The notes below the pieces were generated by a model. That model was not told the DNA's origin and did not search any database. It saw nothing but the letters and a program-made list of their open reading frames with translations. Below, piece by piece: positions 18,940 to 20,735 of a DNA stretch of 64,000 nucleotides (position 1 is its first letter; the number at the start of each line of letters is the position of its first letter). Source of the DNA: a virus (Duplodnaviria > Caudoviricetes); IMG/VR virus record IMGVR_UViG_3300017716_001697, positions 32,001-96,000 of that record; one strand, given 5' to 3'. The position numbers were made by a program, and so were the translations under genes.

Positions 18940-19230
18940 ATGAATGAGATGAAGCCACTGCATAGATTGACACTAGCAGAAAGGCAGGCTAACAGAGAAC
19001 GTTGCCTTGAGCAACTAGAACGCACACGATATGAGTTCTGTCCTATAGTAGATAGGGAAGACTCAATTCGCACATTAGAAGATGTTGCAATGCATTTGGA
19101 CGATTTTATTTCTGAGAAAGAACTAAATGAAGAACATGATACGCAATTGCACGGCATGTTTCACGATGTAATGGACATACTGGATTATTTAAAAGGTTAC
19201 GATAATCCGTTGACAAACACACCAAAGTAA
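18940..19230 (+). CDS. Hypothetical protein inside the RNA array locus
   Basis: 96-aa ORF. Confidence 0.6.
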   Translation: MNEMKPLHRLTLAERQANRERCLEQLERTRYEFCPIVDREDSIRTLEDVAMHLDDFISEKELNEEHDTQLHGMFHDVMDILDYLKGYDNPLTNTPK

Positions 19231-19238
19231 CTTACAAT
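19210..19238 (+). promoter_or_regulatory. Sigma70-like promoter for the Ro-like gene
   Basis: TTGACA-17 nt-TACAAT. Confidence 0.7.
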
Positions 19239-19255
19239 TGACACTTGCTAACAAA

Positions 19256-19288
19256 GATTTATAACAGCAAATTTTAAAACTAAATCTG
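19256..19288 (+). promoter_or_regulatory. Minimal Y RNA-like unit 6 in the 5' UTR, adjacent to the RBS
   Basis: GATTTA-TAACAGCA ... TAAATC-TG immediately followed by AAAGGA and ATG 19302. Confidence 0.7.
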
Positions 19289-19301
19289 AAAGGAAAACAA
19301 C

Positions 19302-20735
19302 ATGACAACATTATTTCAAGCAGTAAACGCATCCGGTACAACAACAAACGGTGCAGTAACAAACGTATCTTCCCTAAACAAGAACGTTGACCTATTCTTC
19401 CTTGCTGGCGCAAGCCGTGGTAAGGATATTACATCTACCTTCGCTGGTGCTCTAGTGGAAGATCCAGAAGTGGCAGTTCGTGTCCTTGAATGGACACGTG
19501 ATGCACGCGGTGGTGCAGGCGAACGTAATACGTTCCGTTCGTTGCTGGGATATTTGATCCGCACTGAGCCAGCATTGGCTACTCGTGTGTTGGCAAAGGT
19601 GCCAGAACTTGGCCGTTGGGATGACCTGTTCATCACATTTGGGACAACTCTGGAACGCGATGCCTTGCGCATGATTACTACAGCACTGACAATCAGCAAT
19701 GACGGTTTGTGTGCTAAGTGGATGCCACGCCAGGGCGCTGAAGCTAACAAGATTCGTTCGTACATGAAGTTGACTCCTAAGCAGTATCGTAAGTTACTGG
19801 TTGGTCTGTCTAACACTGTTGAACAGAAGATGTGTGCTCAAGACTGGACAGGAATTGTGTACCCACATATTCCGTCAGTTGCGGCAGGTCGTTACCAAAA
19901 GGCTTTCCTGAAGCATGACCCTAAGGGCTATGCTGATTACAAGGCTAAGTTGGTTTCTGGTGAAGCTAAGATCAACGCAGGTGCAGTATACCCATACGAT
20001 GTTATCCGTTCGTTAAACAACGGTGACAAGACTGTGGCAAACGCACAATGGAAGGCATTGCCTAACTACTTGGAAGGCTCAAACGAAAACATCCTATCGG
20101 TTGTTGACGTGTCGGGTTCGATGAGCAGCGTAGCTGTGTCTGGTAGCGTAACTGCTATGGACGTTGCAATCTCTTTGGGATTGTACACATCTGAACGCAT
20201 GAATGGTGTATTCAAGGATACTTTCGTTACATTCTCTGGTTCGCCAGAAATGATTAACTTGAAGGGTACCTTGGAACAGCGTTATGCACAGATGGCTCGT
20301 TCTAGCTGGGCAATGAATACTGATCTCGGTGCAGTGTTTAAGTTAATTCTTAGCTCTGCTGTGAAGGGCAAGGTTGCAGAGGCAGAAATGCCTACTAAGA
20401 TCTTGATCTTGTCGGACATGGAATTCGATGCTTGTGTAACAACAGGTAGCGGTCCATCCCGTGGGCACTATTCATCTGGTGGAACTGAACTTAGCGTAAG
20501 CGCAATGGAGTTCATCGAAAAGGAATATGCTGCTGCAGGGTACAAGGTACCACAGATCGTATTCTGGAACTTGAATGGTCGTGCTGGTAACAGCCCAGTG
20601 ACCTACAACAAGGTAGGTGCTGCATTGGTATCTGGATTCAGCCCAAGCATTGTTAAGTCAGTGTTAGGTGGTGAAGAAATGACACCGATCAGCATTATGT
20701 TGAAGACTGTAATGACACAGAGATATGATTTCTAA
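19302..20735 (+). CDS. TROVE/Ro60-like RNA-binding protein (DUF2828 + vWA)
   Basis: RDARGGAGERNTFR, PELGRWDDL and AKWMPR helical region; vWA MIDAS DVSGSM and ILSDMEFD; IVFWNL. Confidence 0.85.
   Translation: MTTLFQAVNASGTTTNGAVTNVSSLNKNVDLFFLAGASRGKDITSTFAGALVEDPEVAVRVLEWTRDARGGAGERNTFRSLLGYLIRTEPALATRVLAKVPELGRWDDLFITFGTTLERDALRMITTALTISNDGLCAKWMPRQGAEANKIRSYMKLTPKQYRKLLVGLSNTVEQKMCAQDWTGIVYPHIPSVAAGRYQKAFLKHDPKGYADYKAKLVSGEAKINAGAVYPYDVIRSLNNGDKTVANAQWKALPNYLEGSNENILSVVDVSGSMSSVAVSGSVTAMDVAISLGLYTSERMNGVFKDTFVTFSGSPEMINLKGTLEQRYAQMARSSWAMNTDLGAVFKLILSSAVKGKVAEAEMPTKILILSDMEFDACVTTGSGPSRGHYSSGGTELSVSAMEFIEKEYAAAGYKVPQIVFWNLNGRAGNSPVTYNKVGAALVSGFSPSIVKSVLGGEEMTPISIMLKTVMTQRYDF

What the first reader, a model, noticed from the sequence alone, without database searches (positions are those of the whole stretch)
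19210..19304. Cargo-less copy of the RNA handle abuts the Ro-like gene's RBS: candidate autoregulatory operator
Seen: promoter TTGACA-17-TACAAT (19210-19238), then GATTTA-TAACAGCA-AATTTTAAAAC-TAAATC-TG (19256-19288), then directly the AAAGGA ribosome-binding site and ATG 19302. Inference: free protein binds its own leader and represses translation, which would match protein level to the pool of array RNAs, as in ribosomal-protein feedback loops.
Basis: inference. Interest (0 to 1): 0.75.

Follow-up and report, generated by a model that had tools for sequence, protein, structure and literature searches.

The report
Minimal Y-RNA handle in Ro-like leader
A giant freshwater phage carries, in the leader of its Ro60-shaped RNA-binding protein gene and touching the ribosome-binding site, a 34-base stripped-down copy of the conserved closing module of its own Y-RNA-like RNAs. 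The arrangement recurs in at least 16 divergent phage lineages, so it most likely lets the protein sense and limit its own synthesis, though this is untested.

Summary
A promoter-like site (19210-19238) is followed by the handle: 7-bp stem AGATTTA/TAAATCT, TAA-CAGCA and an 11-nt loop (19255-19287), then G19288, SD AAAGGA and ATG 19302.

The gene is Pfam DUF2828+DUF7788. Its AlphaFold model matches only Ro60/TROVE structures at the top of a PDB search.

The leader copy is not chance (P about 1e-5 per start codon). It is the only such short unit beside an SD in the 364-kb genome.

Cargo-less copies of 33-45 nt end 11-16 nt before the Ro-like ATG in 15 of 16 distinct lineages (4 nt in L120). These span 25-85% protein identity and show compensatory stem changes. 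Two unbiased IMG/VR pattern scans recovered them.

The leader is 92% identical to its nearest relative, against about 76% for the coding sequence and 35% aa for the neighbouring ORF.

Best reading (0.45): a cis operator bound by the Ro-like protein that blocks the RBS. This would be autogenous control by mimicry, new for any Ro/Y system.

Several points count against it:
- Binding and repression are untested.
- Many homologues keep their RNAs downstream and have no leader handle.
- Short handle RNAs also occur free-standing or in a 3' UTR.
- Tight packing alone places array ends next to RBSs.

This scan had already noted the upstream array on this same DNA; this report concerns the leader copy.

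The parts
19210..19238 (+). sigma-70-type promoter-like site, TTGACA-17-TACAAT. It overlaps the stop codon of ORF 18940-19230. The predicted start is near 19245, about 10 nt before the handle.
   Evidence: 11/12 match. Conserved in L017 with one mismatch in the -35.
19255..19261 (+). 5' strand of the handle stem, AGATTTA, preceded by the conserved AA(A) flank
19262..19269 (+). 3-nt linker TAA plus the invariant CAGCA motif. The C lies 10 nt after the A that opens the stem, as in all units.
19270..19280 (+). A/U-rich remainder of the loop (11 nt), in place of the 60-200-nt cargo of the array units
   Evidence: Its sequence is not conserved between lineages.
19281..19288 (+). 3' strand TAAATCT plus the conserved unpaired G (the ...CUG end of the handle)
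19289..19294 (+). Shine-Dalgarno AAAGGA, starting immediately after G19288; 7-nt spacer to the ATG
   Evidence: The same layout is seen in the other cargo-less leaders, except L120, which has no SD.
19302..20735 (+). Ro60-fold gene (477 aa; Pfam DUF2828 + DUF7788/vWA-like)
18058..18932 (+). Array of five cargo-bearing handle RNAs: 18058-18274, 18324-18447, 18462-18697, 18710-18805, 18819-18932. Promoter-like sites lie at 18010-18037 and 18281-18309.
18940..19230 (+). 96-aa ORF of unknown family, inserted between the array and the leader copy. A homologue (35% aa identity) occurs only in L017.

Best explanation
The 34-nt element 19255-19288 is a genuine minimal copy of the closing module ('handle') of this phage's Y-RNA-like RNAs. 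It is built into the 5' UTR of the Ro60-fold gene so that its last base touches the Shine-Dalgarno sequence.

Most likely it is a cis-acting binding site for the Ro-like protein itself. While free handle RNAs are available the protein is bound to them. When protein is in excess it binds the leader copy, stabilises the otherwise marginal 7-bp helix and sterically excludes the 30S subunit from the SD 1-6 nt away. This would be autogenous translational repression by molecular mimicry.

Shown here:
- the element exists and is not chance;
- it shares the invariant features of the handle;
- the protein has a Ro60 fold;
- the handle-plus-SD arrangement recurs and covaries across divergent lineages;
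- the SD is not sequestered by RNA structure alone.

Inferred, not shown:
- the Ro-like protein binds the handle at all;
- it binds the leader copy;
- binding lowers translation.
For: 1. The element and its coordinates are confirmed. Chance P is about 1e-5.

2. The gene product models confidently (pLDDT 83). Its 13 best PDB matches are all Ro60/TROVE, full length.

3. Handle RNAs accompany DUF2828 genes in T4-like, FelixO1, Klebsiella, Ralstonia, Listeria, Campylobacter and cyanophage genomes. The protein is therefore the obvious ligand.

4. All 23 loci of the close clade have a handle ending 11-19 nt before the ATG. Sixteen distinct lineages at 25-85% protein identity have a cargo-less copy of 33-45 nt. 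The G-to-ATG distance is 11-16 nt in 15 of them.

5. Two unbiased IMG/VR pattern scans found these copies. Of the first scan's 50 hits, 17 sit 11-16 nt before a Ro-like ATG, plus the distant L120. In the second scan, 5 of the 6 loci holding a Ro-like gene have the copy before its ATG.

6. The stem covaries: pair 3 AU/GC, pair 4 UA/AU/GU, pair 6 UA/CG/GC/AU.

7. Leader block 19252-19301 is 92% identical to L017. The coding sequence is about 76% identical and the neighbouring ORF 35% at protein level.

8. In WIN and L017 an ORF plus a promoter lie between the array and the mini-handle; L010 and L018-L021 likewise have the copy 0.8-1.5 kb from the nearest array unit, most with a promoter-like site just upstream. 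In none of the 16 is the copy separated from the gene.

9. The genome has at least 9 cargo-bearing handle RNAs, three of them short forms of 55-63 nt elsewhere. The leader copy is the only one followed by an SD rather than a U-rich tail.

10. The U two nt before CAGCA is kept in 98% of 110 array units but in only 5 of 16 leader copies. The leader copies are therefore under a different constraint from the free RNAs.

11. RNA-only folding leaves the SD accessible and the stem marginal, so any occlusion needs a trans factor.
Against: There is no binding, expression or 5'-end data. The only RNA-like public runs hold relatives' array units as contigs and do not cover the leader.

Many homologues have no leader handle:
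- the layout with RNAs starting 0-16 nt after the stop codon (L027, L031, L043, L050 and others);
- FelixO1, S13, Ci1, PX29 and XbC2.

So feedback of this kind is not a general property of the family.

Units are packed 8-13 nt apart throughout. In at least 14 lineages a cargo-bearing unit, not a minimal one, abuts the RBS. Adjacency alone is therefore expected from packing.

Short handle RNAs (47-63 nt, mostly unstructured loops) are regular array members. In L147 two of them follow the stop codon before a terminator.

In L159 a perfect consensus promoter touches the handle, so transcripts from it would lack the 5' strand.

Covariation within the close clade alone is modest: 2 pairs, 3 cells.
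Confidence: 0.45

Rival explanations
1. The element acts in cis but does not repress. It is a protein-bound or processing-defining 5' hairpin that marks the boundary between the RNA array and the mRNA. It would stabilise the message against 5'-end-dependent decay, or direct the cut that releases the upstream RNA.
For: With their own promoters, the handle starts only about 2-10 nt from the predicted 5' end in WIN, L018, L019, L021 and L204. That is the position of known 5' stabiliser hairpins.

Where there is no promoter, the mini-handle directly follows the last cargo unit by about 5 nt (L003-7, L149, L152, L185).

Array units end in G plus a U-rich tail, whereas the leader copy ends in G plus a purine-rich SD. 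This would fit different processing fates.

L147 has short handles in a 3' UTR, a place where stability elements act but an RBS cannot be blocked.
Against: A 7-bp A/U-rich stem with a 19-nt loop (-2.4 kcal/mol) is a poor stabiliser unless a protein holds it. That again requires handle-specific binding.

CAGCA and the AG/CUG ends are conserved, which a generic hairpin does not need.

The SD starts 0-5 nt from the helix in every case. A bound 54-kDa ring would be hard to reconcile with free 30S access.
Confidence: 0.2
2. The element is a stand-alone product: the usual short last unit of the array, trimmed further and cut out of the transcript. It would bind the Ro-like protein as an 'empty' Y-like RNA, for example as a gate. 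Its position next to the RBS would then be only a consequence of tight packing.
For: Short-form handle RNAs of 47-63 nt with unstructured A/U-rich loops are widespread (FelixO1, Listeria P200, Klebsiella KP13-26, Ralstonia RSP15 and many IMG/VR loci). They tend to be the last unit of an array whether the array lies before or after the gene.

The promoter-(8-13 nt)-handle layout of the leader copy is the same as for units E1 and E2.
Against: This genome already has three short-form units elsewhere. The leader copies are distinctly shorter (33-45 nt against 47-63 nt) and have mostly lost the U at -2 that free units keep in 98% of cases.

The copy lacks the U-rich tail of all free units.

It stays attached to the gene when ORFs and promoters are inserted upstream.
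Confidence: 0.2
3. The element is a decaying relic of an array unit that lost its cargo, with no present function, or a chance resemblance.
For: L022 looks like a freshly cargo-deleted tRNA-mimic-type unit (CCGCA motif, 45 nt). The U at -2 is lost in most copies. The hairpin is thermodynamically weak.
Against: - P(chance) is about 1e-5.
- The copy is retained in 16 lineages down to 25% protein identity, with compensatory stem changes and invariant AG, CAGCA and CUG, while the loop sequence drifts.
- The leader is more conserved than the coding sequence.
Confidence: 0.08

Closest known systems
Autogenous translational operators that mimic the protein's primary RNA target: E. coli ThrRS on the thrS leader; ribosomal proteins S8, L1, S15 and L20 on their operon mRNAs; T4 gp43 and RegA; MS2 coat protein on the replicase operator; U1A on its own pre-mRNA. 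From established knowledge, not tested here.
   Same: A stripped-down copy of the protein's cognate RNA module sits in its own mRNA, flush against the RBS. The thrS operator hairpin occupies a very similar position just 5' of the SD. The logic of titration by the primary RNA ligand would be identical.
   Different: No binding or repression has been shown here. The protein is a Ro60-fold ring, for which no autoregulatory operator is described; full-text searches found none. The operator is present in only part of the family.
Ro60/Rsr with Y RNAs (YrlA/YrlB, Yrn1; Thermus phage phiLo Ro60 with Yrl1/Yrl2)
   Same: The protein has a ring-plus-vWA fold. The small RNAs are closed by a 5'/3' terminal stem with a conserved motif just inside it, are encoded on the same strand beside the gene, and some carry tRNA-like cargo. 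In phiLo the Yrl RNAs also lie upstream of the gene (PMC12135203; PMC4201824).
   Different: The protein matches Pfam DUF2828/DUF7788, not TROVE. The motif is C(A/C)GCA at a fixed 10-nt offset, not GNCGAAN0-1G or GGUCCGA. No Rfam family matches, even at E up to 5. No leader copy or feedback loop is reported for any Ro/Y system.
Bas63 (Felixounavirus) gp130, a Ro60-like protein reported to counter the 'ppl' defence (PhageMaP preprint, PMC11482910)
   Same: It appears to belong to the same protein family: the window protein matches FelixO1 ORF42 at 42% identity, and Bas63 is of that genus (its gp130 was not compared here). Those authors guessed that neighbouring 'tRNAs' could be Y RNAs. I find four handle units among the FelixO1 tRNA genes.
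   Different: In FelixO1 the RNAs lie downstream and the leader has no handle. The preprint defines no handle or operator.

Membership tests
Ro60/TROVE - Y RNA ribonucleoprotein | Protein with the Ro60 architecture (HEAT-repeat ring plus vWA domain) | tested here: met
   AF2 model has pLDDT 83 and pTM 0.82. Foldseek ranks 1-13 are all Ro60/TROVE chains, aligned full length, with E 8e-10 to 3e-5 and TM 0.44-0.62.
Ro60/TROVE - Y RNA ribonucleoprotein | Sequence membership in the Pfam TROVE domain family | tested here: not met
   Pfam gives DUF2828 (8.6e-27) and DUF7788 (2.9e-51) only. phmmer against PDB sequences finds no Ro60.
Ro60/TROVE - Y RNA ribonucleoprotein | Partner RNA closed by a 5'/3' stem carrying the known Ro-binding motif (GNCGAAN0-1G in bacteria, GGUCCGA in animals), or matching Rfam Y RNA/YrlA models | tested here: not met
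   The terminal stem is present, but the motif is C(A/C)GCA. There are no Rfam hits in 17950-19350 at E up to 5.
Ro60/TROVE - Y RNA ribonucleoprotein | Physical binding of the protein to the RNA stem | not testable with these tools
   The complex predictor takes proteins and small ligands only. Only co-occurrence across phage families is shown.
Autogenous translational operator by molecular mimicry | A copy of the protein's cognate RNA element within its own mRNA leader | tested here: met
   The leader copy shares the AA-AG stem, the 3-nt linker, CAGCA, the A-rich return strand and the CUG end with the array consensus. A promoter-like site lies upstream.
Autogenous translational operator by molecular mimicry | The operator overlaps or abuts the ribosome-binding site | tested here: met
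   G19288 is followed directly by SD 19289-19294. The G-to-ATG distance is 11-16 nt in 15 of 16 lineages.
Autogenous translational operator by molecular mimicry | The operator is conserved with the gene across relatives | tested here: inconclusive
   It is present in 16 distinct lineages with covariation. It is absent from the downstream-RNA layout and from most cultured relatives examined.
Autogenous translational operator by molecular mimicry | Protein-dependent repression of translation, relieved by the primary RNA ligand | not testable with these tools
   This needs reporter, toeprint or binding assays.
Intrinsic terminator / attenuator | G+C-rich hairpin followed by a U tract | tested here: not met
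   The stem is A/U-rich with a 19-nt loop, at -2.4 kcal/mol, and is followed by AAAGGA. The terminator scan finds nothing there.

The most novel reading that the evidence does not exclude
Phage Ro60-fold (DUF2828) proteins measure the occupancy of their Y-like RNA pool through a minimal decoy of the RNA handle in their own mRNA. This would be the first feedback loop described for any Ro/Y ribonucleoprotein.

The natural copies of 33-45 nt would also define the minimal recognition element: an AG-closed 6-7-bp stem, a 3-nt linker, CAGCA and a CUG end. That element belongs to a widespread and apparently undescribed phage RNP family found in FelixO1-like, Listeria, Campylobacter, T4-like, cyano- and jumbo phages.
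Probability: 0.4. Interest if true: 0.72.

Novelty: new variant of a known kind. Interest (0 to 1): 0.6.

Why it matters
Ro60/Y RNA particles are conserved from bacteria to humans, yet how the protein-to-RNA ratio is set is unknown.

A natural minimal handle glued to the RBS gives a short, directly testable candidate for both the protein's recognition site and a feedback circuit.

It also provides a search key for this RNA family, which Rfam does not hold: an AG stem, then CAGCA at a fixed 10-nt offset, then a CUG end. The family accompanies a protein encoded by hundreds of cultured phages. One member is reported to counter a bacterial defence system (PMC11482910).

If the element proves to be only the last, trimmed unit of the array, it still delimits which part of the RNA is indispensable.

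Tried and rejected
- **Rfam.** Gathering thresholds on the whole window and E up to 5 on 17950-19350 gave nothing for the array or the leader.

- **Sequence search against PDB.** No Ro60 was found. Only the fold search showed the relationship.

- **Public RNA data.** The window comes from a freshwater metagenome. The RNA-like runs hold at most 10% of the words, as contigs of relatives. Laid on 17950-19550 they cover array units but not 19084-19407. This says nothing about expression, ends or processing.

- **RNA-only switch.** Folding the 16 leaders shows no consistent pairing of the SD or AUG, and the handle stem is often not in the MFE. A protein-independent occlusion model is rejected.

- **Terminator or attenuator reading.** Rejected.

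- **A regulon of mini-handles before other genes.** None was found in the 364-kb genome.

- **Handle-like hits inside the Ro-like coding sequence** (L004, L005, L006, L012, L019). These are a coding-sequence coincidence, EYAAAGYK..VF.

- **Handle-like pair around tRNA-Pro (5679-5820).** It lies in a small ORF and is probably chance.

- **'CCTG' just before the SD in S13, Ci1, PX29 and XbC2.** No 5' partner strand exists, so these are not handles.

- **KVP40 leader.** It has ACAGCA but only a 3-bp stem; left open.

- **Cultured phage with a cargo-less leader copy.** None was found among the 12 examined. Campylobacter F365 (80-nt unit, 21 nt before the ATG) and Synechococcus phage BUCT-ZZ01 (69-nt unit, 22 nt before the ATG) have cargo-bearing units there.

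- **Literature.** 'DUF2828' returns no phage or RNA paper. No paper links Ro60 to control of its own mRNA.
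Full report
**What is there.**
- TTGACA 19210-19215, a 17-nt spacer, TACAAT 19233-19238.
- AGATTTA (19255-19261), TAA-CAGCA (19262-19269), an 11-nt A/U-rich loop (19270-19280), TAAATCT (19281-19287) and G19288.
- Directly after that, AAAGGA (19289-19294) and ATG 19302.

The stem is 7 bp rather than 6.

The promoter-like site scores 11/12. It is one of three strong + strand sites in 17900-21100. The other two, at 18010 and 18281, each precede a handle unit by 8-13 nt after the expected start, the same layout as here.

On its own the hairpin is marginal: -2.4 kcal/mol, z = -1.2.

**The gene.**
ORF 19302-20735 (477 aa) matches Pfam DUF2828 and DUF7788, not TROVE. A sequence search of the PDB finds no Ro60.

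An AlphaFold model built on 41 homologues has pLDDT 83 and pTM 0.82. Its 13 best PDB matches are all Ro60/TROVE chains: Thermus phage phiLo, Deinococcus Rsr, and Xenopus and human Ro60. They align over the full length; everything below them is isolated vWA domains. 'Ro-like' is therefore right by fold, but the protein belongs to a different sequence family.

**The handle.**
Five upstream units share one closing module. They lie at 18058-18274, 18324-18447, 18462-18697, 18710-18805 and 18819-18932.

The module is: an AA flank, a stem of 6-8 bp that opens A-G, a linker that places C(A/C)GCA exactly 10 nt after that A, variable cargo, an A-rich return strand, and a complementary strand ending C-U, then G.

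Over 110 distinct units from 80 IMG/VR loci the consensus is taaAG..T.g.TaCaGCAA ... aaaa.c.At.CTG. No Rfam family matches.

The same module flanks DUF2828 genes in many cultured phages:
- FelixO1 (four units among its tRNA genes)
- Klebsiella KP13-26
- Ralstonia RSP15
- Listeria P200
- Campylobacter F365
- Cronobacter S13
- Synechococcus phage BUCT-ZZ01

The phage genome (364,576 bp) holds four more units 35-47 kb away.

Other notes of this scan had already described the array and the tRNA-mimic unit on this same DNA. I re-derived the units independently.

**Is the leader copy more than chance?**
A strict handle of 45 nt or less occurs 0.02-0.09 times per 64 kb of composition-matched random sequence. 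That gives about 1e-5 to 3e-5 for one ending within 25 nt of a given ATG. In the whole genome it is the only such short unit followed by an SD; every other unit is followed by G plus a U-rich tail.

**Conservation.**
All 23 loci of the close clade (75-85% protein identity) have a handle whose final G lies 11-19 nt before the ATG.
- In WIN, L003-7, L010-12 and L017-23 it is cargo-less.
- In L001, L002, L008, L009 and L013-16 it carries the tRNA-mimic cargo.

A more distant group (about 47-50%: L063-L076) has units of 55-97 nt there.

Two pattern scans of all IMG/VR contigs did not use the gene as a criterion.
- The first gave 50 hits. Seventeen of them (10 distinct sequences) sit 11-16 nt before a Ro-like ATG. 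One more, L120, sits 4 nt before a DUF2828 gene of only 25% identity. The rest look like chance hits in coding sequence.
- The second used a different stem. It gave five further lineages (L149, L152, L159, L185, L204; 42-60% identity) with copies of 33-44 nt lying 12-15 nt before the ATG.

In total there are 16 distinct cargo-less leader copies of 33-45 nt. AG, CAGCA (CCGCA in L022) and CUG do not vary. Pairs 3, 4 and 6 of the stem change compensatorily: AU/GC, UA/AU/GU and UA/CG/GC/AU. Loop sequences drift. Within the close clade alone covariation is modest, at 2 pairs.

Against L017, the leader block 19252-19301 is 92% identical. The coding sequence is about 76% identical, and the intervening 96-aa ORF 35% at protein level.

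**What separates the leader copies from ordinary units.**
- They are shorter than any free-standing unit. Short forms elsewhere are 47-63 nt.
- They lack the U-rich tail.
- The U two nucleotides before CAGCA is present in 98% of 110 array units, including short forms and cargo-bearing RBS-adjacent units. Only 5 of 16 leader copies keep it.
- In WIN and L017 an ORF and a promoter lie between the array and the gene, and the mini-handle has stayed with the gene. L010 and L018-L021 show the same separation, with the copy 0.8-1.5 kb from the nearest array unit.

**Mechanism.**
The best-supported reading is that the leader copy is a binding site for the Ro-like protein. It is placed so that a bound 54-kDa ring covers the SD, which begins 0-5 nt from the helix. 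This would be autogenous translational repression, titrated by the free handle RNAs.

RNA structure alone does not sequester the SD in any consistent way, and the stem is too weak to matter without a ligand.

The geometry resembles the thrS operator bound by ThrRS and the ribosomal-protein operators (established knowledge, not tested here). I found no report of such a loop for any Ro/Y system.

**Why confidence is limited to 0.45.**
- Binding and repression are untested. Public RNA data do not cover the leader.
- Many homologues put their RNAs 0-16 nt after the stop codon and have promoter-only leaders. Some cultured relatives have no leader handle either.
- Units are packed 8-13 nt apart everywhere, so an upstream array ends at the RBS by default. 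In at least 14 lineages the RBS-adjacent unit carries cargo.
- Short handle RNAs are normal array members, usually the last one. In L147 two of them sit in the 3' UTR before a terminator.
- In L159 a perfect consensus promoter touches the handle, so transcripts from it would lack the 5' strand.

These facts keep three rivals alive:
- a cis-acting stabiliser or processing boundary (0.2);
- a stand-alone 'empty' short RNA (0.2);
- a relic (0.08).

**Comparison and novelty.**
Functionally the closest known things are mimicry operators (ThrRS, r-proteins, T4 gp43, MS2 coat, U1A). Structurally the closest are Ro60/Y RNA particles, including phage phiLo Ro60 with its upstream Yrl RNAs (PMC12135203) and YrlA (PMC4201824).

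Membership in the TROVE/Y RNA family fails on protein sequence family, RNA motif and Rfam models, although the fold and the RNA topology agree.

The related Bas63 gp130 is reported as a counter-defence protein, with a guess that neighbouring tRNAs are Y RNAs (PMC11482910). The handle defined here identifies such RNAs in FelixO1.

I rate the finding a new variant of a known kind of control, attached to an apparently undescribed RNP family. Interest is 0.6.

Noticed in passing
outside the window: G000:C1 4354-4408, 9190-9304, 13763-13820, 15452-15514 (+ strand): Four more handle RNAs (55, 115, 58 and 63 nt) lie 35-47 kb from the Ro-like gene. They have the typical TAA-AG start and a CUG-plus-U-rich end. 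The phage therefore has at least 9 such RNAs, not 5.
   Followed up: partly
window 18058-18932 and 110 units in L001-L091: The U two nt before the C of C(A/C)GCA is 98% conserved in cargo-bearing units, but only 5 of 16 cargo-less leader copies keep it. It may organise the junction with the cargo rather than contact the protein.
   Followed up: partly
L083 (Salmonella phage FelixO1) 4255-4322, 4422-4480, 4876-4944, 4963-5088: Four unannotated handle RNAs (AGACCA/TGGTCT and AGACCG/CGGTCT stems) are interspersed with the tRNA genes downstream of the Ro-like ORF42. Similar units occur in Klebsiella KP13-26, Ralstonia RSP15, Listeria P200, Campylobacter F365 and Synechococcus phage BUCT-ZZ01. Two long 'tRNA-Ser/tRNA-OTHER' annotations in Cronobacter S13 lie next to or overlap such units.
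   Followed up: partly
L147 1517-1640: Two short handle units follow one another. The first (47 nt) starts on the stop codon of the Ro-like gene. A canonical terminator hairpin comes after them, so both lie in the gene's 3' UTR.
   Followed up: partly
L027, L031, L032, L039, L043-45, L047, L050-54, L057-58: An alternative layout is conserved in many loci. The first handle RNA starts exactly 16 nt after the stop codon, and a second unit of 54-60 nt follows about 50 nt later. The gene leader has a promoter but no handle.
   Followed up: no
window 18932-18942: The final G of the tRNA-mimic unit E5 lies only 7 nt before the ATG of the 96-aa ORF 18940-19230, with no recognisable SD between them. 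That ORF has a 35%-identical homologue only in L017.
   Followed up: partly
L082 (Vibrio phage KVP40) about 2470-2511: The leader of the KVP40 Ro-like gene contains TTTACAGCAATTT directly before the SD, but only a 3-bp CAT/ATG stem. No strict handle units were found within 2.5 kb.
   Followed up: no
window 21023-21478 and 17538-17984: A staphylococcal-nuclease-family ORF lies about 290 nt downstream of the Ro-like gene and could be an effector partner. A BLUF-domain ORF lies just upstream of the array.
   Followed up: no
window 5679-5820: A handle-like pair (GAAGATT ... TTACAGCA ... AATCTTC-G) brackets tRNA-Pro 5735-5813. The 5' part lies inside a short ORF, so this is probably chance.
   Followed up: partly
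window 18286-18761 (contigs of relatives in runs X23 and X27): Contigs from wastewater and freshwater runs at 85-95% likeness join across parts of the array, skipping 307-474 nt with other letters in between. Related phages therefore differ in which units they carry.
   Followed up: no
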